DNA of 63,219 bases, the filler included, from Corallochytrium limacisporum Hawaii (lineage: Eukaryota > Protista > Pluriformea): the NCBI GenBank assembly GCA_002811645.1. It is 5 parts of 5 records of this genome, joined end to end, with 100 filler letters (N's around TTAATTAATTAA, not from the genome) between each part and the next. Parts side by side here need not be neighbours in the genome. Positions count along the whole stretch, not along the records: positions 1 to 22,330 come from PDIP01000266.1; positions 22,431 to 30,872 come from PDIP01000012.1; positions 30,973 to 48,689 come from PDIP01000176.1; positions 48,790 to 60,908 come from PDIP01000148.1; positions 61,009 to 63,219 come from PDIP01000145.1. One strand, written 5' to 3'. Every line of letters starts with the position of its first letter. Position 1 is the first letter of the stretch. Position numbers and translations under genes: made by a program. Below, piece by piece: positions 1-62,935 of this stretch. Under the pieces are notes generated by a model that did not search any database, had not been told where the DNA came from, and was given only the letters and a program-made list of their open reading frames with translations.

Positions 1-85
1 ATAATCATATAAATCACGATCCGGTATATATTTTCGAACGAAAATTTTGGTTGGATACGGAGTATACATTCAACTCAGAGGATAG
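1..85. mobile_element. Terminus (TIR + subterminal region) of TA-bounded DNA-transposon/MITE-like element, variant D; TA at 86-87
   Basis: Ends ...CATTCAACTCAGAGGATAG|TA. Positions 1-87 are identical to 61013-61099, and the sequences diverge immediately after the TA. Confidence 0.8.
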
Positions 86-1343
86 TAATAAAAAAAGGGG
101 GAGGGATAGAGTCAGCAGGCTCCGAAACGAACAGAGGGGACACTCGGAGAAGACACAGAGAGACAAGAAAGAGAGAGCGAGAGAGACAGACAGAGAGAGA
201 GAGAGCGGCAAGCACAGCGGGCGGGAGAGCGAGTACGGTCAGTCAGCGAGCGCCGGGTTTGGGGTGTCTCTGCTGCCAGCTTCCCCCCCCCCCTTTTTTT
301 TTCTTTCTTTCTTGGCTGTGTCGTCGCGGAAGGAAAAAAGTACCCGCAGCCACACACACACACACACAACGCCCAGCAGCCCAAAGGAATGTCCTTCGCC
401 GACGTATGAAATGGGACTGAAAGCGGTACTGAAAGTATGGAGAATTTTTTGGCTTGTTGCTTCCTCGTCGGACCGAAGGGGGGGGTAAGGGGGCCAGACG
501 TCTTCTCGCCTCGACGGGCACCGCCCCGGGGGGGGGGGTTCGGGAGTGAGCGTGACAGTGGCCTGACTCCTGACTCAATTGCAAAAAAGTAGAAACCGGG
601 GAAGCCCGCGCCAGCCTCCTAATCTTTTTTGTTTTTCGTACATTTTATATGGACCCCGGGAGAGCGTTGGACAAATGACCCGTCAGAAAAAAAAAGGGGA
701 AAAAATGGGGTTCAAAAAAAGAAACGGCGAGACCGCCCGATGGGACCACCGTAAAGAGAGCGCCGCCGAGCAAAGACGCAAAGCACCGCCCCCCCCCCCC
801 CGCGGCGGGGCGAGAGAGAGAGGGAGGCCCAGGGAACGGTCGGAAAATAAAAACGGCTGACGGTGACACACCGACCAACTTTTTTTTCCCTGTCAAATTT
901 TCTTTCCGGAAGGGAGCCCCCCCCTCTCTCTCTCTCTCGCTCTCTTCGGGGCCGGGCGAGACTGGCCCAAATGGGCTATTTTTAGAACAGCCAATACACC
1001 CCCCCCCCGGGGGGAGGGGGGACATGAAATAGAAGGGAATCGCCTCCTTGGACCGTCCGTTCGACCCACTTCCTGCACCCCGGGGTTTTTTTTGGGAAAA
1101 GGGAGGGTTTCGGTACATAGCCACCGGGGGCCCCCCGGGGGGGGGGAGGCTGGGGCAAAAAGGGTTTCGGGCGAGTGTGCGAGTTGAATGTTTCACTGCA
1201 CGAGTGGACATGAATTGTAGGATCTATATCCTTTTAGGAGATTCGTTGATGTGCATGTGAAGTTGAGATGGATACATGTGTTGGGGATGGGGTAGATTCT
1301 ATTTCTTTAACGGAACAAACTTGGTATTGATCTACGGTTTCGT

Positions 1344-2624
1344 CTATGAGTCGTGCGCAAGAATCCATTCGACCGCCTGGTCAATGGAATTATTGGTCGC
1401 AGATAGGGCTCGCTGGGCAAGGGTACGGTCATATCCCATGGAGACCAGTGTTTCAACATGTTCTGGATTAGCTGGAGGTTCCTTTGGTGCGGATGCTGCT
1501 GCAGAGGGGGCGGATGTTGTCGAAGAGCTGGCGTCTTGAGCGGGTGACTTCGCGCTCTCATCGGGTGCCTTGCCTCTGAGTTGCTGCTTCGCGTGTTCAG
1601 GCAATTCGTGCTCAGCGAGGAAAGGAGTCTCGGTACCAGTAGCGCCAAAGCGAAGTACATTCTTCTCCAGATTGATGGAACAATGCAGGCCCCGTAGCAT
1701 ATCCAACCCGAGGATCATGTCGATGTTCTGGTCTTCCATGATACTTAGCGCGATGGTTTGAAAATCACCTTCCACCTGCATTTTGACCATGAAGATCTTA
1801 CCCAGAACCTTAGCACTGCCTACTCCGACGGCCATAGTAGCAAAGCGATCATCAAGCCAAGCGAGGATACCACAGCGCTCTGCAGTGGCCTTGCTCATGA
1901 TGCTCATCTGGGCACCGCTGTCAACAAACGCTTTGATTGGGTGGTCATTTACCTTGCAGTTAATGTACAACATGGTGATATGACCGAATTGCTCTGGAGT
2001 ATGCTCCATGGCATGTTCCAGTCGCTCCTGCACATTGCGCCGACGGGTTTCATCTTCAAGAAACTTTTGGGCTTCCACATCCATTGGATTTGCCTGGGCC
2101 CGGCGCATCATTTCAGCTTTCTTGCGCTCGTGCTCCATCCTTGCGTTTTCCCACTGGAGGATAATGCCCTTAAAGGCCTGAAAATCGCCTTTCTCAGCTG
2201 CTTCAACCATAGCAGGATTACCCTGGCGCATACGCTCACGCTCTGCAGGCACCGAGCGGATGGAATCGTACAGTTGTCTCAGTTGCTGGTCCCGGGGATC
2301 AACCTGAGGCCGGCTCTGTGCACCCAGGGATCCCCAATCGATGTTGAACGGCAGCGCACGATTAGATCTTTGTGCTCCTGCAGGAGGTTGTGCCTGCTGT
2401 GGTATTTTCTTCTGTAGAAGCAGCATGTCCTCATGTCCTACTCCTTCTGACTGCAAAGTTGCTGCGCCATTGTTAAGGATTTTGTTCTTGAAGCTAAGAA
2501 CCTGCTGATCAACCGGAATACCGCAGTCAGCCTCCAGGACCGCCTTTACCGACGCGATGTCCATTTCAGGCATGACATCGATACTGTAGAAGTCCCCATC
2601 AGGGGTTTGGAAATTTATCCGCAT
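1344..2624 (-). CDS. DDI1: DNA damage-inducible protein 1 (UBL - retroviral-type aspartic protease - UBA)
   Basis: N-terminal ubiquitin-like domain, MLYINCKVN..IKAFVDSGAQMSIMS protease motif, C-terminal UBA (LVSMGYDR...AVEWIL). Confidence 0.97.
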   Translation of the reverse strand: MRINFQTPDGDFYSIDVMPEMDIASVKAVLEADCGIPVDQQVLSFKNKILNNGAATLQSEGVGHEDMLLLQKKIPQQAQPPAGAQRSNRALPFNIDWGSLGAQSRPQVDPRDQQLRQLYDSIRSVPAERERMRQGNPAMVEAAEKGDFQAFKGIILQWENARMEHERKKAEMMRRAQANPMDVEAQKFLEDETRRRNVQERLEHAMEHTPEQFGHITMLYINCKVNDHPIKAFVDSGAQMSIMSKATAERCGILAWLDDRFATMAVGVGSAKVLGKIFMVKMQVEGDFQTIALSIMEDQNIDMILGLDMLRGLHCSINLEKNVLRFGATGTETPFLAEHELPEHAKQQLRGKAPDESAKSPAQDASSSTTSAPSAAASAPKEPPANPEHVETLVSMGYDRTLAQRALSATNNSIDQAVEWILAHDS

Positions 2625-22430: not shown

Positions 22431-22518
22431 TTGAACTCGGTTGGCGCGAATTTCTCCCTCCCTCCTTATTCCGGTTGATTAAATGTGATTTGGAGCAATA
22501 TTTCGACGCAGAGGATAG
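22431..22518. mobile_element. Terminus of TA-bounded element, variant C; TA at 22519-22520
   Basis: Ends ...GCAATATTTCGACGCAGAGGATAG|TA. Shares terminal CAGAGGATAG with variant D and subterminal motifs with variants A and F. Confidence 0.75.

Positions 22519-28074: not shown

Positions 28075-28076
<2 letters not shown>

Positions 28077-28142
<66 letters not shown>
28077..28142. repeat. (GT)n microsatellite, ~33 units
   Basis: Perfect GT dinucleotide run. Confidence 0.98.
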
Positions 28143-30633: not shown

Positions 30634-30872
30634 CCACCCTCTGTCTGGTATGTCAGGGTCAAAACTCCGAAAAACTTGACTCCCGAGGATCTTTTTCAAT
30701 CTTGATTGTATAATAATTTATATTGATTCTATTCTATTTCATTATATTTTGCTCTTTTTAACAATCATGCACAAATATTTCAATAGCTGATTCAAACGAA
30801 GAGTCCCTGCTACTCTCAAAAAAGGACTATTTTGACTTTGGCTTGACATTGAACACATCGTAGTCGTACAAA
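30634..30872. mobile_element. Opposite-orientation terminus of TA-bounded element, variant E; TA at 30632-30633
   Basis: TA|CCACCCTCTGTCTG is the exact 14-nt reverse complement of the terminus ending at 31101; AT-rich interior runs into the contig end. Confidence 0.8.
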
Positions 30873-30972: not shown

Positions 30973-31101
30973 AAGATTGGCACAGTTATACATTCGAGGG
31001 TGCTGAGTTCGAATCTGTCAAAATTTTCCCGCTCTCCCAAGCGACGGCAGAGCTAAATCAAAATGAGTAGATTTGATACAATATTCTCAGACAGAGGGTG
31101 G
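30973..31101. mobile_element. Terminus of TA-bounded element, variant A; TA at 31102-31103
   Basis: Ends ...ACAATATTCTCAGACAGAGGGTGG|TA; subterminal GCTGAGTTCGAA-N11-TTTCCCGC. Confidence 0.8.
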
Positions 31102-37265: not shown

Positions 37266-37524
37266 TCTATTATTCCATCTGTGTTAAATTTATGGTCAGT
37301 TCAAATTGCGAACATGCATGTCTTCTAGGCAGGTTAACGGTTCGAAAACTGTGCGCTTGGTTGAAGTAGCCGTTCATGTATTTCCATAACTGCCGGAACA
37401 ACCGCTCCGTAGAATCGAAGGTGGGTAGGGTTTTCTGCCCCTCCCTCCCGTCCGGCACGGTCTGCTACAGGGAGAGTACCACAGTACCACTGCAGGAACA
37501 AAATGGGAAGGGGAACCCTCCCAT

Positions 37525-44579: not shown

Positions 44580-44852
44580 GGAAACACATTGTTACGGAGA
44601 ATGCCGGCGACATGCACGCAAGCACTAGGAGTAGTCAAAAGACATCAATGAGACAATATTAAATCAAAAGACTTCAAAGCATTTTTGTTCTTTACAATTG
44701 TACACCTATAGTTGTTGAACCGACCGTGGTCAGGGAAACTTATGGAACTGCTGCCGACCCTGATCAGTGCGATGTGTCTTTCGTATCTCCGAATAGAGTC
44801 TTCCATTTCTGCGGGTTTTGTTTTGTTCATTTTTTTTGTCAAATCAAACAGT

Positions 44853-45593
44853 TCAACGACGGCGGCTGTTGTTTTCCCGACGACGGCGGTCATTGTTCTC
44901 ACTGTTGCGAGCCAGAATAATGGCCAAGCGGATAAAGATTGCGACAACATCAGCAAACAGATCAATGGCATGCATGATGTTATCCATATCTCCCAGCTTT
45001 GCCCGTTCGATGATCATCTGCGTATCGTAAGCAACGAAAAAGCTAAACACCACCAAACCACCATACAACTGTCCGAGCAGGAGCCACTCGGATCCAATGA
45101 ACATGTTGAACAAACCCATAAAGAAAAGCATGTTGAGTGCCGATCCCAAGGTTCCGGCCATGTACAGGTACTCTCGCTTTGTGTTGTACATGGCAGAGAT
45201 AGTGAAGCAGCCAAAGATTGTGGCCGTGCCCAACAGAGCGGTAGTGATGATGGAGGGGTCAAACTCAATAAACGCATAGATCATGGGTCCCAGGCTCATG
45301 CCCTGAATGAAGCCAATACCGTGTAGCACGGCATAGCGAGTGGCGTCCTTGGATGGATCGTTGCGAGTGCTGGCAATGTACATGTAAGAACCAATAATAC
45401 CGATGAGGGACAGGAAACCGAGATTCATGGGCATCAGCCAGGCACCGGCAGCAGCTGCGAAACACATTGTCAAGACGTTAGTGTACACAGCCTGCAGGTG
45501 GTTGCGGACGGGCTTTGACAAGGGACTTGTGTCGGTCAGGCCCTGCATGCTGAAAGGGGTGCCAAAGGGCAAATTATCCATGTACGCAGACAT
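44853..45593 (-). CDS. TMBIM6: Bax inhibitor-1
   Basis: VRNHLQAVY, ALLGTATIFGCFTISA, REYLYMAG, YDTQMIIERA..GDMD...HAIDLFAD; basic tail. Confidence 0.95.
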   Translation of the reverse strand: MSAYMDNLPFGTPFSMQGLTDTSPLSKPVRNHLQAVYTNVLTMCFAAAAGAWLMPMNLGFLSLIGIIGSYMYIASTRNDPSKDATRYAVLHGIGFIQGMSLGPMIYAFIEFDPSIITTALLGTATIFGCFTISAMYNTKREYLYMAGTLGSALNMLFFMGLFNMFIGSEWLLLGQLYGGLVVFSFFVAYDTQMIIERAKLGDMDNIMHAIDLFADVVAIFIRLAIILARNSENNDRRRRENNSRRR

Positions 45594-47577: not shown

Positions 47578-48216
47578 TCAATGTTTGGCCTCAGGACGTC
47601 CAGCAACACACACCAGGTTGATGCAGTAGCGATTGCCCTTAACGTCAGGCAGGTTATGTCCCAAATGTGTTCCTGCGGTGCTCACGGCCTCACCGTTGGG
47701 GAGGACGCGGAGGTGCTCAGAGACGACCTCCTCGTCGCGGAAAGACGGCCAGCCGTGTTTGCTACTCTCCTTGATGAAGTCATCCCAAGAGCGTCCACGG
47801 GGGGCAATAAAAAGAGGGTTGCCAGTTACAGAATCGTAGAAGGTGACCTCACCGCCTCGAGGTCCCTCTTCTTTCAGGAAATCGGTCTTCTTAAAATATC
47901 CGGCATGCTCAGCGTAGTGCCGATTGAAGCAGCAGATGCGGTCGGCAGTTTCCCAGTCGACATTCCAACGCAGATTCTGCTGGGGAGGCTTCTCTGTAGT
48001 GCCGTGGGCCTTCTTGCTCATGATCTTATCATCGCCCTCGAGGTCCTTGGCGAGTCCAGACTGTACGCGGTTACCCATGATGTTTGTGTTTAGAAAATTA
48101 GAGGAGCTTGTATGTTCAAATATTGATCTGAGTGTGGTATTGTCAACCAACAGATATAGTGTGACTATAGATACTAGGAGTAGTAAACTTTGATATGAAC
48201 CATTGAAAAATCTCAT
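47578..48216 (-). CDS. msrB: MsrB-fold (methionine-R-sulfoxide reductase-like) protein, atypical subfamily
   Basis: HGWPSF, GTHLGH, GNRYCIN (catalytic Cys); N-terminal LRWNVDWETADRICCFNRHYAE. Start at 48216 or 48078 (MGNRV). Confidence 0.85.
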   Translation of the reverse strand: MRFFNGSYQSLLLLVSIVTLYLLVDNTTLRSIFEHTSSSNFLNTNIMGNRVQSGLAKDLEGDDKIMSKKAHGTTEKPPQQNLRWNVDWETADRICCFNRHYAEHAGYFKKTDFLKEEGPRGGEVTFYDSVTGNPLFIAPRGRSWDDFIKESSKHGWPSFRDEEVVSEHLRVLPNGEAVSTAGTHLGHNLPDVKGNRYCINLVCVAGRPEAKH

Positions 48217-48602
48217 TGATGTGTCATGGGAGTGGATGTCCTTAAGTAACTGTTCGTGCACGCAGGCAAGTCCTATGGGATGCTTGTTTGTTCCCAAGCA
48301 AGAGCTGTGGCTCCATGGCCCCACGGACCTGAACAGGCAAGAAAACAAACAGAGCAGCAGGGTGATCCACAATCTGTCAGCTTCCACAGTGCAAGCTCCG
48401 TGTTGCGCATTACACTTGTTGTTTAGTTTCTCGAAGCGCACGATGACTCAGATGGAGCCGCCTTGGTACGCACCGTCGACGCGACCAGGGCGTTGGTGGG
48501 CGATCCCGCCCGTAACTCAGGGGTAGTATGGACCCATGTACGACAGTCCAGGCAAGGGTGTGTGCCCTTTGTGGGGGAAAAGCGGCCTGGGTGTATCAGG
48601 TA

Positions 48603-48689
48603 CCAACCTCTGCCCCATAAGTTAAGGAGGAATCTGCCTAAAAACATGCACCGTAATATAAGGAGGGAGATTCTGATTTTTTCTCCATT
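48603..48689. mobile_element. Opposite-orientation terminus of TA-bounded element, variant F; TA at 48601-48602
   Basis: TA|CCAACCTCTGCCCCATAAGTTAAGG matches 19/25 to the reverse complement of the terminus ending at 48901. ACCGTAATATAAGGAGGGAG resembles variant C's subterminal region. Confidence 0.75.
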
Positions 48690-48789: not shown

Positions 48790-48901
48790 AGAGTCGGCTA
48801 CGCTGAGTTTGAACGCGCAAAATGTTTCCCGCCACAGCGGTCGGGATTCGAATGAATTTGATTTGAATAGAGTCGGCCTAATATTATGAGACAGAGGGTG
48901 G
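48790..48901. mobile_element. Terminus of TA-bounded element, variant B; TA at 48902-48903
   Basis: Ends ...CCTAATATTATGAGACAGAGGGTGG|TA (revcomp CCACCCTCTGTCTCATAATATTAGG, Stowaway-like); subterminal GCTGAGTTTGAA-N11-TTTCCCGC. Confidence 0.8.
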
Positions 48902-49320
48902 TACAAAGGACTTTCACGAAATCTAGAAAAAGCACATCGCAATCGTGTAGTATGTAGCCGTACCCTGAAAAAGTCCCTCTACCCTACCTTACCTTTTCTG
49001 GAGTACAAGGTGGGAAAAAGCAAGTGAAAATTAGGCCCCCGCCCCGCGTGTAAAATAGCTTGGCGCGGGTGTGCCACTAACGGCCGGTGCCGGGTGCGCG
49101 GAGAGCTATTTGACACCGCCAGTGTTAGGTTTTCGGGTATTTGCATTTGCACAGCCTCATTATGGGTCGTTGATGAGACTTTAAAAAACCATTGTTCGTT
49201 AGAAATTCATTCTCAAAGGTGAATCTGTGTCTGAGCATGTATTTCATAGGTGAAAGAAGAACGAAGTAAAATGTGAAATACGAAAGCATTTTGACTAGAC
49301 CTCAAAGAAAACCTCCAAAT

Positions 49321-51312
49321 ATGACTGAATCCAAGGATTCAAATGAAACAGAGCCCACTTCAACTACAACAGAAGTGAAAGCGGCGAAGTCGGACCCAAA
49401 ATCGGATGCGAAGGAAGGGAAAGAGAGCACTGAAGATGCGCAGCCGGAAGGTAAGGAAGCCGAGGAGGCGAAGGATGTGAAAGACGATGCCAAAACCGAT
49501 GCAATGAAGACAGACATTTCCCCTGCGAGCAAAAAAGACAAGGATTCCTCTCCGAAGTCGAAGGCTGGTAAGCCTGCCGATGGAAAACCTGTCGTGACCC
49601 AGAAGCGCAATTCTGAGGGCATTCCGGTTTCCACTACTGGATCGAGTACAACAGCTGAAAAATCGGGTGGTGAAACCAAAAAGGAGGACAGACCAAGCTC
49701 GAGCAATGCACAGGCCATAAAAAATAATTTCCTATCTCGCCATTGCTACCGGCCGAGGAAGAAACCGAAATTGACAGCAACCAGTCTGCAGCGACCGGTT
49801 CAGCATCTCTTTTCTGAAGACAAGTGCTGGTGGGAAAGTGGCGAAGCAGTGACTGTCGATGGAACAATTGACATCCTAACATCACCGAAGTCAACATACG
49901 TAAATGGTGCCACTCAGCCCAGGAACACTGGAGACTTGTATACTGCGGGTGCGATGTTTCGTAGCGATAACTCGTACGTCGAGCAGCGGATAGAGACCTT
50001 GTTGGAGAATCTTAGCACAAACAGAGGCAGAGATCTCTCGAAGCTGGATCACGACGGTGTGGACAGGAGCAAGTGGAATTCAGTGCAAAAGCTAGTATAT
50101 GACAAGACCTGTTCTGTGATCAACGCCTACCGGCAAGCTATGCTGGTAAGCAAGAGCGCTAAGGGGGAACTATTTCGCTTACAGCAGCAACAAAAGATGT
50201 GCGCTGAAAAGCTGCGACAGTTGTATTCCGAGTTGTTATGGGATACTGTGACACTGCGGTGGTTGTCAGTCGCTTTGGCCGACAATCTGGGAAAGGACAT
50301 GCTGATACCATATTTCCAATTACTACGCTGTTTAAACGCCAAATGCCCAAAGCTGGTGGCCAGTACTGGTGCACTGACTCTGGGTCACAGCGAGCGCTTT
50401 AAGCATCATACCGAGCTCCGCGACCTGCTGAAACAGCCTCCACAGCAACTCGACACGATTGAAATTGTTAAGACCATCCCTGGCGTTTCCACTGCTAAGA
50501 ACAGACCCATTTTCCTCTTGTTCTCCGGCAGCACCAGTTGGGAGGCTCCTGGGTATCCCTCAAAACTGCGTCAATATCTCGACCTCTTCGGTGAATGTCG
50601 AATTGTGCGCACTGAACTCGGTAAAGGCGAGCCCATGGTGACTCTGACGGGTGCTACGACAGGACCAAAGAAGGGTAGGGGCACTATCAAGATTGGCCGT
50701 GGGTACTACGACCCGTACGGTCAAGTGGATGTCGGAGCAAGGCATCTAACGGCACAAGAATTTGCGACAGAAAGCAAAGCATTAGCCTCCCATGTGCAAA
50801 CTTTGGTAAAGGGGTCAAAGCGGCCAGTTATTCTCGTGTCGTTCGGCGATGGCAGCCATTTATCACTGCGCGTCGCCGAGTCGGTTCGGGTGGACGGCGC
50901 ACTTTTCTTTGGCCTTTGTCTGCGTCAAGTTGGCCCCTGGCGTCCTGCGCAGGTCGTAGGTGACACTATTCGCTGCCCTGCAGCATACATTGTTGGGTTT
51001 GAGGCAAAGATGAGTCCGTGGCGCAGTGTGCATACATTGCGCCTGGCCAGTTCGACCACTCGTAGCGAGCTTTTGGTTGTGCATGGTACGGGGGATAACC
51101 TATTGCTGCGATCCAAATTCAAGGCCGAACGCAGAGTAGTTCAGGGCATGGCCGATGTCGGCATGATGTCCTTCGTCGGGCGTTGGCTAAAGCTGCTCAC
51201 GCGGAACGCTGAGGGTGGCAACAAGGCCAACACCGGCTCCAAGACCGCAACCGGCAACGCTCCGGAGACTGTCTCTGCGGCATCCGCAGTCGCAACTGGC
51301 AAGGCTAAGTAA
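49321..51312 (+). CDS. KANSL3: KAT8 regulatory NSL complex subunit 3-like (C-terminal alpha/beta-hydrolase-like fold)
   Basis: HCYRP motif, W..VQK.VY, AEKLRQLY..LLWD..TLRWL..AL.D.L....L.PY...L..L..K.PKL block, hydrolase-like C-terminus (RPVILV, ELLVVHGTGDNL). Confidence 0.75.
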   Translation: MTESKDSNETEPTSTTTEVKAAKSDPKSDAKEGKESTEDAQPEGKEAEEAKDVKDDAKTDAMKTDISPASKKDKDSSPKSKAGKPADGKPVVTQKRNSEGIPVSTTGSSTTAEKSGGETKKEDRPSSSNAQAIKNNFLSRHCYRPRKKPKLTATSLQRPVQHLFSEDKCWWESGEAVTVDGTIDILTSPKSTYVNGATQPRNTGDLYTAGAMFRSDNSYVEQRIETLLENLSTNRGRDLSKLDHDGVDRSKWNSVQKLVYDKTCSVINAYRQAMLVSKSAKGELFRLQQQQKMCAEKLRQLYSELLWDTVTLRWLSVALADNLGKDMLIPYFQLLRCLNAKCPKLVASTGALTLGHSERFKHHTELRDLLKQPPQQLDTIEIVKTIPGVSTAKNRPIFLLFSGSTSWEAPGYPSKLRQYLDLFGECRIVRTELGKGEPMVTLTGATTGPKKGRGTIKIGRGYYDPYGQVDVGARHLTAQEFATESKALASHVQTLVKGSKRPVILVSFGDGSHLSLRVAESVRVDGALFFGLCLRQVGPWRPAQVVGDTIRCPAAYIVGFEAKMSPWRSVHTLRLASSTTRSELLVVHGTGDNLLLRSKFKAERRVVQGMADVGMMSFVGRWLKLLTRNAEGGNKANTGSKTATGNAPETVSAASAVATGKAK

Positions 51313-51751
51313 TGAGATATTGATTAAAACGGAATCCAATACCCTAACGTATCCCGCTTTTCCCACCGCCTGCTCCGCCTCGTGCTGAGCAAGTGTTGAA
51401 CAATTTTAGAGCGAGGGGGTGAGACCGCCGAGGGCGGGCGCGAAAACTTCAAAGGCGAGAGGGAGAGGGAAACCCTCCCTGGCTGAAGGGGAGGGAAAGG
51501 GTGAAGCCGGCGCAAGGGGTTTGAGGTATGCGGAGACAATCGATTGATTTGTTGGCGGGCGACGGGTCAATGAACGCACTTGCAAGAGGGTTCTTCGGTT
51601 CATTGGTGAGCAAAAGTCCACAATCTGATGCTAAGGACTTTACAAAGGTACGGAAAAAAGGACAGTGGCAGTGTACTAGAAGTGACACCAGCTGATCGAT
51701 TGTCAAGCGACCACGAGTAAAGAATCAGGGACAGGAATAGCACTGTAAGCC

Positions 51752-52369
51752 ATGCCAGGTTATTCAGATATCGAGTCGCGCACGATCGAAGTGCAGGCGG
51801 CAGGGACTTTGGAAGCAAAACTTGATTGTGTACGGGCAGCCTACACTATCGAGGTCACAAAACCGAAGGTGGAATCTGCGAAGGAATCAGTAGATAAGCG
51901 GGTGAAGTATCTACTGTTTCTTTTGTACGAGAATGGGGTGCGATCGTCACAACGTGAAATCCGGTACTCTGTCAAGCATTTGGACAACAGCTGCTCAGTT
52001 ACCTGCCGTGTGGTCACCACTTTCGAGGAGAATATTCAGGCCTACATCACGGTCACAGAGACCCTAATGGAAAAAATACCTTCTGGGTTGTCTATGTCTG
52101 AACCCGTTTACTTTGTCAGCGATCGACAGCTCGACCACCTTCGGCGTACAGCCACAGTTCAGGCCACCAAAAATGCTCATCTGAAGGCCTGGGACATTGC
52201 ACAGCTACTCCAGCAGAAAGTGTTCCGGCCATTGGTCATTACAGAAGTAAGCAATGGTGGTCTTCAGGAACTCCACGAATTGGGAGAACAGCAGCCGTTC
52301 GAGGCTGTCATGCAGAAACGTCAACTTGTTACAGCTACCGTCACTGCGACGTTTGAATTATCGGATTGA
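51752..52369 (+). CDS. IRAK1BP1: SIMPL-domain protein (IRAK1BP1/DUF541)
   Basis: RTIEVQAAG, AKESVDKRVKY, LRRTATVQATKNAHLKAWDIAQLL...PLVITE, VTATVTATFEL. Confidence 0.85.
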   Translation: MPGYSDIESRTIEVQAAGTLEAKLDCVRAAYTIEVTKPKVESAKESVDKRVKYLLFLLYENGVRSSQREIRYSVKHLDNSCSVTCRVVTTFEENIQAYITVTETLMEKIPSGLSMSEPVYFVSDRQLDHLRRTATVQATKNAHLKAWDIAQLLQQKVFRPLVITEVSNGGLQELHELGEQQPFEAVMQKRQLVTATVTATFELSD

Positions 52370-52518
52370 ATATGACAACATACTAGCAAATAAGTACTAT
52401 CGTATCTGGTGTATGTGAACAGTTTGTTGAAGTTTTGCCAGATGATAACATTTCTTCAGAACGCAGTTTAACTAATCGTCTAATTGTGATTTCAATATCT
52501 TCTTTCAAAATCATTCAG

Positions 52519-52707
52519 GACCAAATCAAGCAAATGATTGATAAGGGCCAAAATGGTATGCTATTCCTCGACTCTTACATGTTCGCCCTCATAAGCACCG
52601 AAATCGGTGGCTTTGCCGTGCTGTCTCTTGGCTGTGCGTGCAGCTACATGGAGCAGGCTGGTTTGGAGAACCCTGTTATGGACTTTGCCAGGGCAACCTT
52701 ATACTAA
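52519..52707 (+). CDS. Candidate small single-TM protein or terminal exon
   Basis: Coding-like DQIKQMIDKGQNGMLFLDSYMFALISTEIGGFAVLSLGCAC...LY*, preceded by CTAAT, a pyrimidine-rich tract and CAG. Confidence 0.35.
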   Translation, partial: DQIKQMIDKGQNGMLFLDSYMFALISTEIGGFAVLSLGCACSYMEQAGLENPVMDFARATLY

Positions 52708-52722
52708 GACAGCGAATCTGGC

Positions 52723-53160
52723 TCACCCAGTACACCCCGTGCATCCACATGTAGTACACTCCACGTCTTGGTGGTCAGCGAGATCCTTTTTGGGAACCCG
52801 GCAGACACATTGTGTTGCAAAGTTTGTCTGCCCCGGATTCATACACTTTAGACAGCACAGCCTGTCATAGCCAGGTTTCTTCCATTTCGCAATGAGGTTG
52901 CGGTCACCAATGTCATTCTCGAGGCACCACTCGTACACCTCTTTGGTAATAAGTTTCCGTTTGTAGTACATGTCATATATGAAACGAGATGTCTGGTAGT
53001 GCACCTTGTAAATGCTCCAAGTGATCTCATTCTTTTTCAGTGTGCTCGTATCTTCCCTTTCAGCCTCGGCCATTCGCCTTTGCAGTTCTCTGACTGTGGG
53101 TTCAATGATCTCGAATCCTTCAGGAGGTTCTCTATGCCATTGTCTCCGTAACCTTGGCAT
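52723..53160 (-). CDS. BUD31: Splicing factor BUD31/G10
   Basis: PPEGFEIIEPT, LIAKWKKPGYDRLCCLKC, CVCRVPK, ECTTCGCTGC. Confidence 0.97.
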   Translation of the reverse strand: MPRLRRQWHREPPEGFEIIEPTVRELQRRMAEAEREDTSTLKKNEITWSIYKVHYQTSRFIYDMYYKRKLITKEVYEWCLENDIGDRNLIAKWKKPGYDRLCCLKCMNPGQTNFATQCVCRVPKKDLADHQDVECTTCGCTGCTG

Positions 53161-54010
53161 GGCGACGTGTAGTATTTCTTCTTTCAAGTCATATCACCCA
53201 GTCTTGTTCATTCCTTTCACTTTGTTGTAGTAAAATGCGTTAGAAAACTGTTGAAAGGGAGAGCTGTATTTGTCTTTTCAACCTTCACAACATCACTCAC
53301 TCGGCGGGCGCCCTACGGGTTCGTCGGGCCCCGGCACATGTGTGCCGGCAGATCAATAACTGGCAGGCTCACAGGTGAACAATGGTATTCCGTCACTCTT
53401 TGGAATAATATCCGGAATGCTATAAATATATGAAGAATTCGGGCTGACGTTATTTTACTCGTTATAAAAATACCGGTAAATTTAATATACTTTCATTCTA
53501 AAATTACGTTTCAGAATGTATTCTCCACCCGAAAGTCTGTGGGTTACTACGCTGGAGTACACTTCTTTCCCATCCTATATAGCACATGGATGGACTCTGG
53601 AGGGACGGGATCATAGTGTCAGTACTGAATTACTGGACCACTTCGAAGAGCTCCAGGCGCATTGAGGCCACAACACCGAAAGGGCAGGCGCCACCCTTCG
53701 AATAAAGGAAGAAAATTGACTTGAACCCGGCGGCGTTGGGTTCTCCGATTGAACACACGAACTGGCTACTGGGAGTGTGTAAATCTGGCCGCGAACTGTT
53801 AGGTACAAGAGAGTTGTCAGCAAGCATACACAGTGAACAGACGTACCTTGACATTTAAGGTCACGAAATTCGGGACGTTTACTGCGACCTCGTGTCTTGA
53901 ATTGTTTTATTCACTGGAAAGAAATAACACAACATTTGAAACTGAATCTGTACATTTGAGCCCATCCTGGAACCCTAATTATTCTACACATATTAACGAA
54001 CGAACAGAAT

Positions 54011-55264
54011 ATGGGTACGAGTGCTGAGAACGGACATTGGAAGGAGAAGCTCAAAGCTCCTCCCAAGGACTTGCGTCCTACGACAGATGATGTCAACCTG
54101 ACCAAGGGTAATGAGTTCGAAGACTATTATCTTCGCCGTGAACTGCAGATGGGTATTTTCGAGAAGGGTTACGAGCGTCCTTCTCCAATTCAGGAAGAGT
54201 CTATTCCTATCACTTTGGCCGGCCGGGACATTCTTGCCCGTGCCAAGAACGGAACTGGTAAGACCGCTGCTTACCTGATTCCCGTACTGGAGAAGCTTGA
54301 TCTCGAACAGTCTCATATTCAGTCCCTGGTCTTGGTACCTACTCGTGAATTGGCTCTGCAGACCTCCCAATTGTGCAAGGAGCTGGGAAGGCATATGGGT
54401 GTTAAGGTTATGGTGACCACTGGTGGTACTGCCCTGAGGGACGACATCCTGCGTCTCAGCCAGGATGTGCATATTCTGGTCGCCACTCCAGGACGTGTAT
54501 TGGATCTGGCAGAAAAAGGTATCGCCAAGCTGGAGAACTGCAAGACTATCGTCTTTGACGAGGCTGACAAGCTGCTGAGTGCTGATTTCCGACCCATGAT
54601 TGACAAGATTATTGGCTTTCTACCCTCCAGTCGCCAGATCCTCTGCTTCTCCGCCACCTTCCCTGTCACTGTCAAGGACTTCCGCTCTCGTTTCATGAAC
54701 AAGCCTTACGAAATTAATCTCATGGACGAGCTAACCCTTAAGGGTGTGACACAATACTATGCGTACGTCGAGGAGAAACAGAAAGTACACTGTTTGAACA
54801 CGCTCTTCAGCAAACTACAGATCAATCAGAGCATTATCTTTTGCAACTCCGTGCAGCGTGTCGAACTTCTGGCACGCAAGATCACGGAATTGGGTTATTC
54901 CTGCTTCTATATTCACGCCAAGATGAACCAGGCGCACCGCAATCGTGTGTTCCATGACTTCCGTCGCGGTGTCTGCCGAAACCTGGTCTGCTCTGATCTT
55001 TTCACTCGGGGTATTGATATCCAGGCTGTGAACGTGGTGATCAACTTCGATTTCCCGAAGAACGCAGAGACTTACCTTCACCGTATCGGTCGTTCCGGAA
55101 GGTATGGTCACCTAGGTCTCGCCATCAACCTTATTACCTACGATGACCGCTTTAACTTGTACCGGATTGAGCAGGAGCTGGGCACTGAAATTAAGCCCAT
55201 CCCTCCCACCATTGATAAGTCATTATACGTCGCGCCGGCAGGTGCTCTGGACGAGGCTCAGTAA
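54011..55264 (+). CDS. DDX6: DEAD-box RNA helicase DDX6/Dhh1
   Basis: [59 protein letters not shown]. Confidence 0.99.
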
Positions 55265-58200
55265 TCGACTTCTCAAGCAGACACAGAAAAGGGTGCATAG
55301 GTGCTCAGCTACCACAAACTGTTTTCTTATCTTTGCATGTCCATGTTCACATATCCATCATCATTCCATCATCTGCGCATTCAATAGCCAACACGCTGAA
55401 CCCCTACACCGCACCTATTTTGGGACATGCAGGAAAGCCACCACCACTGGGCTTAGGTATGAGCAAATCAGTTCACAATCCTTTCAAATATTTGTTCCAT
55501 TGTGCTCTACCGTAATCACTAGAATATAATCACTACGAATCCCGTACGGTTGGCTGGATCAAACGGTCCGGCATCAAAACCAATCGGGAACAGCCCTTAT
55601 TGGCCCCTTGATGAGGCCTCTGCAGACCCAAACACACCCCGTGTACCCCTTTTTCTCGACTACTCTTTGGGCCTGGTCGACCGACATCCCACACATACTC
55701 CGAACAAAGGGAACAGATGCCGCTATTGCCAGCTGCCTGGATCTCCCTTTCCCGTACTTGAATCATCGAGGTAAGAATACTTACTCCATGCGAAAAAAAA
55801 GGAGGAAATCATGTGGACACAATCTTGGCCCAGAATCAGTAAGTGGAACCTACCCCCTTCCCCCTTCCCCATCTTTGCAGGGATTGTCCCCGAACAATCG
55901 TCACAGCCGCAAAACCACGGGATTATGGGAGGGCCGCTCCAGAAGCCCATCTTCGCGACAGTAAATCGCCCCCTCGTTTCCCAACCCCCGGTGCGTATCG
56001 GTGGTACTCGGGGTAAGAGGCTGGGTGGGTGGCCCGGTGCCGCACCCCAAAAATGTCTCACCGTGAAATTGCCTATCGGAAGCTAATGGGTGAGAGAGGT
56101 CATCCAGAGTGGTGTTTCTGCACTCGTCACTCTACGGTTATCGCGCACAGCACGGGATTGGGGTGTCTAATTTACTACCCCGTGTTATGATGACGCGTGT
56201 ACAAGGGTCTGTGCAGACAGCAGTCCCACATCGCTTTGGTGACGGGCCCAGTACTCAACACACCACAATTTCACGGGCTCGCTCGCAGGTGTTTCTCGGA
56301 AGACAGTAGTCATAAGCGACGGAGCGAGCCCGAAAGGATAGCTCCTGTTGATCATCGAGTCTTTTTGTTCCCGCTTCGCTCTTTGTGCACCAATGCGCGC
56401 AGTCGTTTGCCTGAGGCGGAGCGGTTTTCAGAATCCTTACGGCCTTGACATTTGAGTACATTGAACATACAAACCATCTCAGACTGCGGCTGAAGGTGAA
56501 CTAGTCGGCCGACCTGTCTTCAGCAGCACAAAAAAAAAACTGAGGGATGTCAGCCGGTCCGTCCGGTGCGTATAAAGAAACTACCACCACGAAGAAATTA
56601 GGTCTTAGAGGGCCAGTAGATTGTGTATCACGGCAATCCCTTGCGTTGGAAACGGATAGAAAATATATGGGAACATTTGCGGCCCGTCACAAATTTTTGG
56701 GCGCCGGGGGGGGGTTGTCTTGCTATGGACGCGCGCATGGAAAATTTTCCGTTCCCAATTGCAGAGAAGCCGGTCCTCTGATCTAAAAATAGCACACCAT
56801 GCATGCAGTAGTGAATGTACGGAAGAGGGGTCCCAATTTGGCGATGGCCCGGTCTGCAATTTCTTGCCTATACCACCGCAATTCCTATCTGGGTCCACGC
56901 GGGGTGGTCGAGCCCCTTTCTTCACAGCAAGCGAATGGTTCTCGGTGTTTAATGTCCGTGTATTGTTAACAACTGAGGAAGGCAAAACGGGAAAACCGAA
57001 GAACCTGGGCAATAGAGAGCGCGGCGGTCGGGTCCCCGGACTCTTTCTTCCTCCCTTCGCCTCCGGGGCCTTCCCTTCTTTTTTTTTTTTTGCGTCACTT
57101 TTTTTTTCTCCGTTTTCTTTTTTGACAAAAAACCGATGGTTCCAGACAGGCCTTCCGTCTCCAGCTCCCCTTCCCACTTTGCATTTTTTTTTGCAGGTGA
57201 ACGGTTGGACAGCGGTGGGCCGTCCCTCGGTGCAGTTCAAACAGCTAAAATATAAATCCAGGGAAAAAAGAGAAAGAAAAAGGAAGAAGGAAAGCCATCA
57301 CCACCACCGCCACCGGATGGATCCCGCTCACCCGCCCTTTCTCCTTCTCCTCGCTTCCATTTTTGATTTTTCCCTATTCCTTTTTTTTCTTCTTTGGGCC
57401 TCTGTCGGTTCGCGTGTTATCTCCCGCTCTCTGGTTGTCCGTCATTGTGCCTGCCACTCTATGCCAACCCGCTATGATTAATACATGGCATCTTTTTATT
57501 CGCCTGCTAGTCCATCCGAGACTTTGTGGGGGAGTGCTGCCCTTCCGGGCAAGTACCACTAACTCCCCACCCCCACCCCTTCTCCTCACTCCTCTTCAAC
57601 TTCTCCATCGGTTCAAGATCCCCGGACTTCGCAACTGATGGCGGAGATCACCGTCCAGCTTTGCTGAAAGCCCCCCTTCCCAGAGGTTGCATGGCAGAAT
57701 ACATAGCCAGAGAACTGTAGACTCTTCGAGGTGAAGCGTAGTTTTGGTCCCCCAGCCCTTCTCGAGCGGTTCACGAAGAAAATTGGTTCGTCCCTGCTTT
57801 GCACCTGTCACCACCGCGCACGGACGACGAATGAATAGGTCCAGCAGATATTCTCTTTTCGTTTTACTATACTAATTACATTTAGTACGAACAGACTTGA
57901 TAGACATCCTGGATCCGCTGGAGGCAGTGGGGCCGTGACGCAAATAGAGCGGAACGGACCAAAACAGAGAATGGTTTTGGAGAACTGGCGGTGCATACAA
58001 GCAGCCTTTGATGTCGACAGGCGCAACTCTGGAAATAGACACGGACCACCCGACATTGCGTGGCTGCCCGTGGAACACTTGGATTTGTGTCGAGTGGTCC
58101 TTTGTCCACTTTTGATGAGAAAGTCACGAGTGTCCTTCTCTCGCGCACATTGAACCCGACCGCGGTGTTGACCATGCTATTTCACGTAAGTGACCTTGAC

Positions 58201-58281
58201 TGACCAGTAAGTCTGTTTACATCCCTTCCTCACCTGGCCATTGCCATCTCTCGGGAAATCCATACGATAAGATATTAGGCC

Positions 58282-60486
58282 ATGTCTGGTGTAATGTCTC
58301 TGCCAGTGGCGGACTCCTTCCTGGGTGCTCTCAGGAGGAACCCCCGCCGCAGCGGAGTTGCCGCTGCTGCCCTGTTTGCGGGCATCTACGCCGTCCGCAG
58401 GTACAGAGCCAAACTTAGGGCTGACGGCCGCGAGAGTACACTATTGGAAGAGCGGGCCTTAAAGGAGATCCAGGCCACCTCAAAGAAGCGTATCGGTGTC
58501 GACAAGGACTTCTTTAAGAAGGTCGGCAGGCTGCTGAGGATTGTGATCCCGGGCCTGAGGAGTAAGGAATTCGCAATCCTCCTCTTGCATACCAGCGCTC
58601 TGGTGTTCCGCACCTTGTTGTCCATCTACGTTGCCACTCTGGATGGTGAGATCACACGCAACATTGTATCCGGTGATGTGAGGAGCTTTGCTTGGAACTT
58701 GGCCAAGTGGATGGCCATTGCTATTCCCGCCACCTACACAAACTCCATGATTCGCTTCTTGGAGTCTACCCTGGCTCTGTGCTTCCGCACTCGTCTCGTG
58801 GACTATGCTTACACCCAGTACATGAAGAACCAGACCTACTATAAGGTCGGAAACCTGGACACTCGCATCGACTGTGCTGATCAGTGCATGACCGAGGACA
58901 TCAGCCGCTTCTGTGCCCAGCTAAGCCATCTCTACTCCCAGATCTCCAAGCCCATTCTCGATGTATTCCTCATGAGCTACCAGCTGATTGCCCTGGGTAC
59001 TGCCCGTTCCGGCAGTGGCAGTACCATCCTACCCGCCATCATCGGTATTGGCACGACGATGGCTACCGGCAAGGCCCTGCGCATGCTCGCCCCTCCATTT
59101 GGTCGCATGGTAGCCTACCAGGCCCAGCTTGAAGGTAACCTGCGTTTCATCCACAGCCGTCTGATCACCCATTCTGAAGAGATTGCCTTCTATCGGGGAC
59201 ATGAAGTTGAAGAGAGCATTCTGCGTACCTCCTATGAGAAGCTGCGTCGCCAGATCATGAAGATTTACAGGAGCCGTATCAACTACATCATGTTGGAGCA
59301 GTTCATGATGAAGTACTTGTGGAGCGCCAGCGGTTTGATCATGGTGGCCATGCCGGCGCTGACGCATGCGGAAAAGACGCGCGAAATTGAGTCCACTGGC
59401 GGCCTTAACGAGCAGGCTATGGGCCGTACCCAGGACTTCGTTACCAGCCGTTCCCTGCTTTCCTCGACTGCCGATGCCATTGAGCGTATCATGAGCTCCT
59501 ACAAGGAAGTTACCGAACTGGCCGGCTACACTGAGCGTGTCTCTATGATGATTGATGTCTTTGACGATGTGGACCGTGGCCACTACGTCCGCAACCAGCT
59601 TGACTCTGCCGATGCCGACACGAGCTACAAGCCCAACCAAGCTGTCGTTGAGCGTGTCCATGGAGGTGGCATTCATCTCGAGGATGTGCCCATCATTACC
59701 CCCACCGGCGATCTCTTGGCGGACAAGGTCAACTTGGATATTGAACCCGGCATGCACTTGCTCATCACCGGTCCCAACGGATGTGGTAAGAGCTCTCTGT
59801 TCCGCATGTTGGGTGCCCTGTGGCCCGTCTGGGGCGGTCGCTTCCGTGCTCCCGCCGTCGAGGACCAGTTCTACATCCCCCAGAAGCCATACTTGGTGGT
59901 TGGATCTCTCCGGCAGCAGATTATCTACCCGGACAGTGGAGAGCAGGACATGAAGAAGCGCGGTATGACTGACGATGATCTAATGGACATTATGAAGTGG
60001 GTGGCACTGACTCATGTGGTTGAGCGTGAGGGAGGGTTGGATGCCGTGAATGACTGGAAGGATGTCTTGTCCGGCGGTGAGAAGCAGCGCATTGGTATGG
60101 CCCGTTTGTTCTACTTCAAGCCTCAGTACGCTCTCCTAGACGAGTGCACCAGTGCTGTGAGCATTGATGTTGAAGGCCAGATGTACCAGCATGCCAAGGA
60201 CATTGGCATCACTCTGCTGACCATTACGCATCGCCCGACTCTGTGGAAGTTCCACTCGCACATTCTGCAGTTCGACGGTGCCGGTGGCTACCGCTTCGGT
60301 CTCCTTGATGCGGACTCTCGTCTCTCCCTGGAGGACGAGAAGAAGCACCTGGAAAGCAAGCTCAAGGACGTTCCCCAGCTGGCTGAACGCTTGCGTGCTC
60401 TGTGCACTGACCTCGGCGAAGACTGTGCTCTCGATCTCGACCACTTCCCCCAACCTAGCACTGATATTAGCTTCCGTAGTCCTTAG
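58282..60486 (+). CDS. ABCD: Peroxisomal ABC half-transporter, subfamily D (ABCD1/2, Pxa1-like)
   Basis: SEEIAFYRG (EAA-like), ITGPNGCGKSSLFR, LSGGEKQRIGMARLFY, LLDECTSAVS. Confidence 0.97.
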   Translation: MSGVMSLPVADSFLGALRRNPRRSGVAAAALFAGIYAVRRYRAKLRADGRESTLLEERALKEIQATSKKRIGVDKDFFKKVGRLLRIVIPGLRSKEFAILLLHTSALVFRTLLSIYVATLDGEITRNIVSGDVRSFAWNLAKWMAIAIPATYTNSMIRFLESTLALCFRTRLVDYAYTQYMKNQTYYKVGNLDTRIDCADQCMTEDISRFCAQLSHLYSQISKPILDVFLMSYQLIALGTARSGSGSTILPAIIGIGTTMATGKALRMLAPPFGRMVAYQAQLEGNLRFIHSRLITHSEEIAFYRGHEVEESILRTSYEKLRRQIMKIYRSRINYIMLEQFMMKYLWSASGLIMVAMPALTHAEKTREIESTGGLNEQAMGRTQDFVTSRSLLSSTADAIERIMSSYKEVTELAGYTERVSMMIDVFDDVDRGHYVRNQLDSADADTSYKPNQAVVERVHGGGIHLEDVPIITPTGDLLADKVNLDIEPGMHLLITGPNGCGKSSLFRMLGALWPVWGGRFRAPAVEDQFYIPQKPYLVVGSLRQQIIYPDSGEQDMKKRGMTDDDLMDIMKWVALTHVVEREGGLDAVNDWKDVLSGGEKQRIGMARLFYFKPQYALLDECTSAVSIDVEGQMYQHAKDIGITLLTITHRPTLWKFHSHILQFDGAGGYRFGLLDADSRLSLEDEKKHLESKLKDVPQLAERLRALCTDLGEDCALDLDHFPQPSTDISFRSP

Positions 60487-61008
60487 ATTTTCATGACATG
60501 AAGAAACATTCCTAACACTGCAAAACCCCCATCTTTCATGCACTACATGGTACTACATTCCCATCCATTGCGTATATAGAACATATGTTTTCTGCCAAGT
60601 TTTACGTTACTGCCTTATGTGGATCTGTTTGTTCACCGCTGGCCAAAGCCATCTCCACGGTACTATCCCCTCCGCTGCGTATGAAGTGCCGCCCGTGACA
60701 CGGACCGCGAAGAGAGTACTGGGACTAGTGCTCTTCGTGTCAGGTTAAAGGGGTGCGCGCGTACGTGTTGGTGTGTCCTCTTCATCTGATTGCGCGTTTT
60801 CCTGCCTAGTGTGAGAGCATCAGCCGCCCGCAAGTGTCGGAGAGGAGGGGCCCCAAAGCACAGCGGAGGGTGAGATGGAGAGATCGAAGGGCCCGCCCAA
60901 CACCCCCCNNNNNNNNNNNNNNNNNNNNNNNNNNNNNNNNNNNNNNNNNNNNTTAATTAATTAANNNNNNNNNNNNNNNNNNNNNNNNNNNNNNNNNNNN
61001 NNNNNNNN

Positions 61009-61097
61009 ATAAATAATCATATAAATCACGATCCGGTATATATTTTCGAACGAAAATTTTGGTTGGATACGGAGTATACATTCAACTCAGAGGATAG
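61009..61097. mobile_element. Second copy of variant D terminus; TA at 61098-61099
   Basis: 61013-61099 is identical to 1-87; unrelated flank after the TA. Confidence 0.82.
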
Positions 61098-62935
61098 TAC
61101 CAAGACTGAATCAGACAGATACGCTTTCGAAAAACTGGAGTGTCCTTTTCACCGTCCTAATCTCTTTCGTTTGCTAATCCCGAACCAAAAAAAAAAACAG
61201 GTTTAGTGACCATGTTGTAATCTGCTTCTTTCATTGTTGATGCTGTGTTTTAGTTCTGCGAAACAATGGACCAAGAGAACATATCATGAGCATGTGGGTC
61301 CCTATCGTACGCAAACTAGACGTCCGCTTTTGCGCATGCCGAGAACCGGCCAGAGGTGGTGTCGGCAAAAGAAAAATAGAACGGAGAAAACTGTCGTCAA
61401 TTCCCTAGGCAGTGCGAGTGAGGGCGAGAGTGATGGCATCTAAAGGCAGGATTTTTTGCAAATATACGTCACTCCCTCGTCATGCGTGCCGTCTAAAAGG
61501 CGGAACGGAGGCCAATGCAAGAAATTTCCAAGGTGAGCCACAATGACGGATCTTTCGTCCCCTATTCCAGTCTCTAGCGTCACCCTCGGGAAAAGCACCG
61601 GCTGGGTCTGAGGAACAATTTTGTTTTGCAAACGCTCGACCCGAATACATCCATCGCTGGTAAGGCTGTAAATGGTAGGGAGGGTGCCAAAGGGAGTCAC
61701 GCATCATAGGCGATCAGTGTTCATTCGGCACCTGTGTAGAACCTCTCATAGATAAAGACATCCGCTTTGCATCCCCGCCATCGCACTGAAGGCACATAAC
61801 ACGGGGGCCACAACTGAGCGCGTCTGGATGCGTACCAAGCCTAAGTTGGAGTAACGGCACATGTCCGCATTCTCCTGACGCTCAAGGTCTTGCTACCTCC
61901 CATCCCCCTCCCCCAGTCGGTCCAGTGTGCAGTAATTGCAGGTTGCATAGCTGCCCTCAGCCTGTACAACCATCAAAATTTGGCGCTGCGGGTAGATTTG
62001 GAGCCCACAAGGGGTGGGCCGCCATACTGAAGCGACTGCCAAAAAAGTGCCTCACTGGTCCAATTGAAAGACTCTACTGTACCCGCTCGTCTGGAACAAC
62101 ACTTGCGAAAGGGAGGGAGCGGAGTGGGCTTAAAAGCACGATAACAAGAGCCATGTGTCTGCTTTAGGGCTGACCTACTCCTAAATAACAACAGATGCAG
62201 AAATAGAGAGACAGAGAAGCATTCCCCATATTCCACAGCCTCTCACACCCGCATCTCCGCCATCGGAAGCTTTTTCAATCTATGACCTTTCACCGTCCCG
62301 CCAATTTTACGTGCTCACCACCTGCCGTTAACGGCATAATTTTGAAACTGTACAGACTTCCTTTGTTGTTGTACATGGTATATATAGGGACAGCCGACAC
62401 ATCAACCATCCAAACATCTTACGACATCAATTCTCCGTCAACAGGATGATAATGCACTCACGGGTTTGGACGTCCATGGATGTGTCTGGATGTATCTCAA
62501 CGGGTATTGTGCATGACGATGTCTTGTATGGGACAAGCCTTTTTGTCCAAAACCACACCACTAAATGTCCGACTGTTTACCAAGAGAGTTAAAGGGTTGG
62601 CATCCACGGCTTTATACATGAATACATGCCCACGACAAGGGGTGATCCAGAGCAAAAGGGTAGTTATTCAAATGGATAATGTTCCGATCCCAGTTGTCCA
62701 TAGACTTACCGATATTCGTATACCAAGCTTTCACACTATCAATCTCCTACTGTGCCCCGATCACCACTCTGTGCCCCTGTGGGAGATTACCCCTCCCCGG
62801 GGGGGAGGACCTAATTGTGACATGGAGACAAAACTTATGGTCCACATATTTGCCCACACATTGATTACCCCAAGACCCGACGAATGGAAAAGGGCGGTCC
62901 CCGGTCTCTCCCTCCCTCTCCGCACCCCAACCCTC

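What the first reader, a model, noticed from the sequence alone, without database searches (positions are those of the whole stretch)
1..61099. Dense family of TA-bounded inverted-repeat elements (TA|CYAHCCTCTG) at 7 of 10 contig ends
Seen: all five contigs begin with 85-129 nt ending in CAGAGG(A/G)T(A/G)G|TA (ends at 85, 22518, 31101, 48901, 61097). Two contigs end inside the reverse complement (TA|CCACCCTCTG at 30634, TA|CCAACCTCTG at 48603). Six distinct variants share the ~10-nt tip and AATATT/AAATC subterminal features. All insertions are intergenic. Known: TA target plus CTCCCTCYGT-type tips are typical of IS630-Tc1-mariner elements, especially plant Stowaway MITEs; these tips carry one extra base. 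Inference: a diverse, multicopy, probably undescribed element group in an intron-poor protist, with roughly one terminus per 9 kb. The bodies are unassembled, so alternatives stay open: MITEs, autonomous or cargo-bearing elements (e.g. Fanzor/TnpB-like, where end plus flank gives a guide RNA), or IES-like excised segments.
Basis: partly seen in the sequence, partly recalled or inferred. Interest (0 to 1): 0.85.

Follow-up and report, generated by a model that had tools for sequence, protein, structure and literature searches.

The report
Hidden high-copy TA-bounded transposon ends
Seven contig ends in this intron-poor, single-celled relative of animals stop inside a repeated DNA element that always borders a TA, and these are likely the ends of mariner-type jumping elements present in hundreds of copies, in an organism that is probably a species described as nearly free of transposons.

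Summary
Seven tips TA|CYAHCCTCTG sit at the stated coordinates, all at contig ends and all intergenic. Contigs of public runs show they are dispersed repeats. Summed depth jumps from about 830 to 360,000-630,000 exactly at the TA, which implies roughly 10^2 copies per end type, and 22 listed records with other flanks all keep the TA. One contig of a second, SNP-divergent isolate leaves the flank at the TA: a likely empty site. DNA contigs run from flank into element at single-copy depth, which argues against IES-like excision. No transposase, RuvC or structured RNA was found, but the bodies are unassembled. Two ends share a 14-nt tip and similar depth, so they are probably the left and right ends of one family of at least 368 nt. 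Corrections: AATATT/AAATC occur in 3 of 6 variants, the Stowaway mask fails, and 'one per 9 kb' cannot be extrapolated. Verdict: probably undescribed Tc1/mariner-type, mostly non-autonomous elements in a holozoan, probably Corallochytrium, whose genome was reported as TE-depleted from a Repbase-only screen.

The parts
1..85 (-). Element end, variant A (tip CTATCCTCTG read inward on the minus strand); body cut by contig start; TA at 86-87
   Evidence: identical to 61013-61097
22431..22518 (-). Element end, variant B (CTATCCTCTG tip, AATATT at 17 nt); TA at 22519-22520
30634..30872 (+). Element end, variant C, 239 nt, AT-rich, no recognisable ORF; TA at 30632-30633; high-copy over its whole length; probable partner end of variant D
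30973..31101 (-). Element end, variant D (14-nt tip identical to variant C); TA at 31102-31103; high-copy
48603..48689 (+). Element end, variant E (CCAACCTCTG tip); TA at 48601-48602; site likely empty in the isolate of run X4
48790..48901 (-). Element end, variant F, homologous to variant D over about 95 nt; TA at 48902-48903
   Evidence: z 7.9
61009..61097 (-). Second copy of variant A at a different insertion site; TA at 61098-61099
31025..31032 (+). TTTCCCGC, conserved at the homologous place in variant F (48825-48832); candidate transposase or host-factor site; fits the recalled E2F consensus
   Evidence: function untested

Best explanation
These seven contig ends are the termini of dispersed, high-copy repeats that border a TA, likely cut-and-paste DNA transposons of the IS630-Tc1-mariner type and probably mostly non-autonomous (MITE-like). 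Shown: a conserved 10-14-nt tip, a TA at every junction, divergent sub-terminal regions forming at least six end types, depth hundreds of times single-copy, many flanks, and decayed and internally deleted copies. Inferred mechanism: a DDE/D transposase encoded elsewhere in the genome binds the short terminal inverted repeats and sub-terminal motifs, excises the element and inserts it at TA, preferably in G-TA-C, duplicating the TA. Insertions into coding sequence are purged, which leaves intergenic copies. Recent bursts left near-identical copies longer than the assembler's k-mer, so contigs break about 85-240 nt inside them and the bodies collapse out of the assembly. Variants C and D are probably the left and right ends of one family of at least 368 nt with asymmetric interiors.
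For: TA at 7 of 7 junctions; the base inside the TA is C in 7 of 7 while the base outside varies (G 5, T 1, A 1). The same 85-nt end sits at two different flanks. Depth steps at 30631 from 835 to 362,548 in X1 and from 260 to 58,964 in X2 and stays high for all 239 nt. Background-corrected sums are about 350-460x for D, 130-150x for E and 130-690x for C; single records carrying minor variants are already 15-29x. All 22 listed foreign-flank records keep the TA: 10 at C, 4 at D, 8 at E. One X4 contig matches the flank to 48603 and continues 255+ nt into other sequence, as an empty G-TA-C site would. A 139-nt internal deletion, a tip-truncated copy and a tip-diverged copy exist. C and D share 14 nt of tip and similar depth. 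TA duplication is the stated hallmark of Tc1/mariner and Stowaway-like MITEs (PMC3814204, PMC8533490, passages).
Against: Both ends of one insertion were never seen together, so paired TIRs and a true duplication are inferred. The tips fail the plant mariner mask. Element length is unknown, so 'miniature' is unproven. Summed contig depth is not a copy number and is inflated by overlapping records (tool note). X1 and X2 are one sample that may be the source of the window. The empty site is one contig, probably of low depth, from a run only guessed to be RNA, and its matched length was not shown. 108 and 11 loose-end rows were not displayed.
Confidence: 0.75

Rival explanations
1. Most copies are long autonomous or cargo-bearing mariner-type elements, possibly carrying a Fanzor, with one end transcribed into the flank as a guide RNA.
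For: The bodies are unseen. Fanzor1 inside TA-flanked mariner elements is documented (PMC3627910, passages). One X3 contig at depth 2379 covers the variant D end, against 40-600 for neighbouring mRNAs. RNA-labelled contigs of X3 and X4 join foreign flanks to 30-54 nt of variant C.
Against: None of 12 end foldings beats shuffles (z -0.87 to +1.82). Rfam gave 0 hits. The 239-nt end holds no recognisable ORF. Flank-plus-end transcripts of 1.2-2.2 kb fit ordinary host mRNAs that run into an insertion. Hundreds of multi-kb copies would be a large share of a small genome (inference).
Confidence: 0.1
2. The elements belong to another DDE superfamily with a 4-bp duplication that prefers GTAC, and the true tip starts one base further in.
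For: G precedes the TA in 5 of 7 window junctions (P 0.03 against a 0.31 background), in 10 of 10 listed records at C and in 5 of 8 at E (biased, because the reference has G). The likely empty site reads G-TA-C.
Against: A variable 4-bp duplication should vary the inner base as often as the outer one; the inner C is invariant in 7 of 7 while the outer base varies in 2 of 7 and in 3 of 8 listed records at E.
Confidence: 0.06
3. They are IES-like segments removed by programmed excision that leaves one TA.
For: TA boundaries, and one junction without the element in run X4.
Against: In DNA runs X1 and X2 single contigs run from flank 22-26 nt into the element at 3 of 3 junctions tested (X1 depth 835, 790 and 548 against about 760 single-copy), and no excised junction is listed. 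X4 is SNP-divergent, so polymorphism explains it. The ends are multicopy and all intergenic.
Confidence: 0.02
4. The ends are a library, vector or concatenation artefact.
For: They occur only at contig ends, and all five starts share one orientation.
Against: Six diverged variants; present in three samples of three studies; no plasmid match; adapter remnants appear separately as their own loose ends in X2 (identification recalled).
Confidence: 0.01

Closest known systems
Stowaway MITEs and PlantMar (DD39D) mariner-like elements
   Same: TA target, very short conserved tip with a CCT-C-Y-G core, many families sharing one tip, high copy number, intergenic positions (PMC3660474, PMC6881990, passages).
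   Different: The tip has one extra base and still mismatches the mask CTCCCTYYSKYMC at 2-5 of 13 places. PlantMar is reported only from angiosperms and a few oomycetes (PMC7325037, passages), whereas this host is a holozoan. No DD39D transposase was seen.
Stowaway-like (TA) MITEs of animals, e.g. Gnome, Elf and Goblin of Aedes aegypti from the DD37E element Ozma
   Same: TA-bounded, hundreds of near-identical copies, deletion derivatives, empty site with a single TA (PMC3814204, passages).
   Different: Most Aedes families carry different TIRs; here six end types share one 10-nt tip. No ancestral element was found here.
Fanzor1-carrying mariner elements (PGv-1, PUl-1, PUl-4)
   Same: TIRs flanked by TA (PMC3627910, passages).
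   Different: No Fanzor ORF and no structured end RNA is detectable in the available ends; bodies unseen.
Ciliate TA-IESs and Tec elements
   Same: TA boundaries; Tec belongs to the Tc1/mariner group (PMC7325037, passages).
   Different: No sign of excision in same-sample DNA; the copies are multicopy and intergenic; the host is not a ciliate.

Membership tests
IS630-Tc1-mariner transposons | TA dinucleotide at element-flank junctions | tested here: met
   7 of 7 window junctions; 22 of 22 listed foreign-flank records
IS630-Tc1-mariner transposons | TA duplicated relative to an empty site | tested here: inconclusive
   One likely empty site with one TA; the far flank of the filled site is not available
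IS630-Tc1-mariner transposons | Inverted repeats at both ends of one element | tested here: inconclusive
   Variants C and D share 14 nt and similar depth; no record bridging two ends was listed
IS630-Tc1-mariner transposons | DDE/D transposase in an element with these ends | not testable with these tools
MITE | High copy number with near-identical members | tested here: met
   Depth 130-690x single-copy as raw sums; 449 of 475 X1 records at 95% identity or more on variant C
MITE | Short length and no coding capacity | tested here: inconclusive
   239 nt without recognisable ORF; total length unknown, at least 368 nt if C and D pair
Stowaway / PlantMar (DD39D) | TIR mask CTCCCTYYSKYMC (PMC6881990) | tested here: not met
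   0 of 6 variants match; 5-7 mismatches ungapped, 2-5 with one base removed
Stowaway / PlantMar (DD39D) | DD39D partner transposase | not testable with these tools
   Bodies unassembled
Fanzor / OMEGA elements | Structured RNA scaffold at the element end | tested here: inconclusive
   z -0.87 or weaker in 12 of 12 foldings, Rfam 0 hits; ends are partial and no small-RNA data exist here
Fanzor / OMEGA elements | RuvC nuclease ORF in the body | not testable with these tools
   Bodies unassembled
IES (programmed excision) | Excised junctions in DNA of the same clone | tested here: not met
   Flank-to-element contigs are unbroken at 3 of 3 junctions in X1 and X2; contigs drop rare variants, so rare excision is not excluded

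The most novel reading that the evidence does not exclude
A new, recently active lineage of mariner-like elements with Stowaway-like tips in a unicellular relative of animals, whose asymmetric ends do more than recruit transposase: the variant D/F end carries a conserved E2F-type site and is strongly transcribed, so hundreds of insertions seed cell-cycle promoters or, if the bodies carry a Fanzor, a library of flank-derived guide RNAs.
Probability: 0.08. Interest if true: 0.72.

Novelty: new member of a known kind. Interest (0 to 1): 0.36.

Why it matters
If the host is Corallochytrium limacisporum, its genome was called 'largely depleted' of repeats and TEs (1.8%; 9 Tc1-IS630-Pogo hits, 656 bp), and this was used as evidence of streamlining, from a Repbase-only screen of a short-read assembly (PMC5560861, passages and supplement 5). 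Several native families with about 10^2 copies per end would have been missed because they are absent from the library and collapsed at contig ends; they could add one or a few percent of the genome (inference). A polymorphic, recently active element would also give strain markers, and its transposase could be a native transgenesis tool in a close relative of animals. The mechanism itself looks ordinary.

Tried and rejected
Relatives outside the organism: the D/F/B-type pattern gave 0 viral loci, 3 metagenome loci that are one sequence inside a 466-aa ORF and 1 bacterial locus inside an ORF. The 15-nt tip gave 64 viral loci; 0 of all 68 loci hold tips on both strands and none aligns to the ends at E 1e-3. 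All are taken as chance. No plasmid match. Coding potential: the 42-aa frame of variant C has no relative among longer proteins (weak evidence) and only a sub-threshold Pfam hit. No tRNA or Rfam family. Overlap between ends in the middle of a short element: 0 of 15 opposite-strand pairs of different ends were significant. Contigs 3 and 4 as the two sides of one insertion: rejected, the likely empty site continues with letters unlike the contig 4 flank. The interior of variant C (30686-30872) has no cover in X3 or X4, and variant D has none in X4; no holder is on record as RNA, so these blanks are not used as evidence. The run search listed no RNA holder on record. Earlier findings of the scan: none. 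The two ends that face each other across a linker were never compared with the runs in one piece, which leaves the pairing of C and D open. A literature check for E2F sites in MITEs found nothing relevant (listing), so that motif label is recalled.
Full report
Layout and observation. The window is five contigs (1-22330, 22431-30872, 30973-48689, 48790-60908, 61009-63219) joined by 100-nt linkers. The pattern is post hoc, but all seven lie within 241 nt of a contig end, and the rest of the window has no one-mismatch hit and 20 two-mismatch hits. The two variant A ends are identical for 87 nt through the TA and differ immediately outside it, which fixes the boundary. No TA lies in any of 23 long ORFs; the nearest ORF edge is 154-2036 nt away.

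End types. With the 10-nt tip removed, 5 of 36 pairwise comparisons reach P of about 0.01 or less: D with F (z 7.9, about 95 nt), B with E (20-nt motif), C with D (37-nt AT-rich stretch, weak), and short internal palindromes in F and A. AATATT and AAATC near the tip are in B, D and F only. C and D share 14 nt of tip and then diverge. The ends are therefore several related families, or left and right ends with different interiors.

Host. The genes are unspliced eukaryotic housekeeping genes: 17 of 21 have Pfam families, none a transposase, and 10 of 10 ORFs tested are in EukProt letter for letter, without names. Among named DDX6 hits are the EukProt entries 'Opistho-2' (81%) and 'Nk52' (78%) and chytrid fungi; reading the first two as unicellular holozoans is recalled, with Nk52 listed among the holozoan genomes in PMC5560861 supplement 6. 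Window GC is 51.24%. Corallochytrium limacisporum has 51.2% GC and 0.0 introns per CDS kb (PMC5560861, passages and supplement 5 part 1). The host is probably that species; this is inferred, not shown.

Copy number. Four public runs hold the DNA: X1 and X2 (DNA, one sample, possibly the window's source) and X3 and X4 (guessed RNA, two other studies). On 30543-30872, summed depth is 835 (X1) and 260 (X2) in the flank, 362,548 and 58,964 in the bin starting at 30631, and stays at 100,000-630,000 and 29,000-104,000 to the contig end. On contig 3 only the two terminal bins are extreme (58,808 and 18,915 against about 760). Ratios are about 350-460x for D, 130-150x for E, and 130-145x (last bin) to 425-690x (middle) for C. 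These sums count overlapping records and are not copy numbers; single records carrying minor variants give hard floors of 15-29x. About 10^2 copies per end type is the defensible reading.

Target and mobility. Listed records with foreign flanks keep the TA in 10 of 10 at C, 4 of 4 at D and 8 of 8 at E (14 of 25 and 23 of 131 loose-end rows were shown; records of X1 repeated in X2 are counted once). G precedes the TA in 5 of 7 window junctions (P 0.03). One X4 contig follows the flank to 48603 and then goes on for at least 255 nt into other sequence. X4 differs from the window by SNPs (22 in 2475 nt at one gene) while X3 does not, so this is most simply an empty G-TA-C site in a second isolate. 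It is one contig, and the far flank of the filled site is unknown, so the duplication is not proven. X4 also holds variant C and E ends at other flanks, so the families are in both isolates. Decayed copies exist: a 139-nt internal deletion with a 40-nt duplication at single-copy depth, a tip-truncated copy and a tip-diverged copy.

Rivals. IES: in X1 and X2 single contigs run from flank into the element at all three junctions tested, and no excised junction is listed. Fanzor or cargo: no fold signal in 12 of 12 end foldings, no Rfam hit, no protein signal; on the other side, one X3 contig at depth 2379 covers the D end and remains unexplained, though a highly expressed host mRNA with an insertion in its UTR would do. 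Four-base duplication: disfavoured by the invariant inner C. Artefact: excluded by six diverged variants in three samples and no plasmid match.

Mechanism. Shown: tips, TA, dispersal, high depth, intergenic position, decay. Inferred: paired short TIRs, TA duplication, mobilisation in trans by a DDE/D transposase, and collapse in a short-read assembly, where 85-129-nt overhangs are what a de Bruijn assembler leaves at a repeat. I put this at 0.75.

Comparison. It works like Stowaway and Stowaway-like MITEs (PMC3660474, PMC3814204, PMC6881990; passages). It is not filed as Stowaway or PlantMar: the mask fails and PlantMar is reported from angiosperms and oomycetes only (PMC7325037, passages). 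Passages of PMC7386202, PMC8533490 and PMC3627910 gave no matching tip; their TIR figures are not held and their supplements were not opened, and these may bear on family assignment. PMC8101967 (one passage) reports no Merlin in Corallochytrium.

Novelty. Searches for Corallochytrium with 'transposable element' (9 papers, listing), for six exact tip strings (16 papers, listing, none on transposons by title) and for later assemblies (20 of 7,769 listed) showed no description. The published annotation for the probable host used RepeatMasker with Repbase only and lists 9 Tc1-IS630-Pogo hits of 656 bp in all; its top families have 60 copies or fewer (part 1 of 72). Repbase, Dfam and subscription journals were not searchable. 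Verdict: a real, probably undescribed set of TA-target DNA transposon families, a new member of a known kind, interest 0.36.

Noticed in passing
window 31025-31032 and 48825-48832: TTTCCCGC is kept exactly at the homologous place in variants D and F; 11 such TTTSSCGC sites occur in the whole window. It fits the recalled E2F consensus, or is a transposase-binding motif.
   Followed up: partly
window 30973-31105 (run X3): One contig at depth 2379, above the 40-600 of neighbouring genes, covers the variant D end; its direction and start are unknown.
   Followed up: no
window 48601 (run X4): A variant E end is preceded by the tip of another element of the group, with three letters between them instead of a lone TA: two elements back to back, and a seventh end variant.
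   Followed up: no
window 30625-30631: Three other long records match from 30625 and one from 30626, so four or five insertions appear to share 6-7 nt of flank; this suggests a longer target preference or a higher copy number than estimated.
   Followed up: no
window 48790-48901 and 48603-48689: Short direct repeats inside single ends (a 9-mer at 25 and 104 nt from the tip in F; an 8-mer at 21 and 57 nt in E), possibly outer and inner binding sites.
   Followed up: no
window 47578-48447: The ORF next to insertion E has contig depth about 50 in X3 and about 300 in X4, where the site looks empty, while four neighbouring genes are similar in both. Contig depth is a poor measure of expression; a hint only.
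   Followed up: no
window 27031-27344 and 29800-30222: A diverged direct repeat (70-82% identity) flanks a 208-aa cysteine-rich ORF at 28440-29066 that has no Pfam hit.
   Followed up: partly
window 33617-35332: An O-fucosyltransferase-like gene has diverged paralogues among the run contigs (69 differences in about 530 nt).
   Followed up: no
window 32552-32820: The 269-N scaffold gap is bridged by four G in an X1 contig, so the internal N gaps look like poly-G dropouts and not hidden elements.
   Followed up: partly
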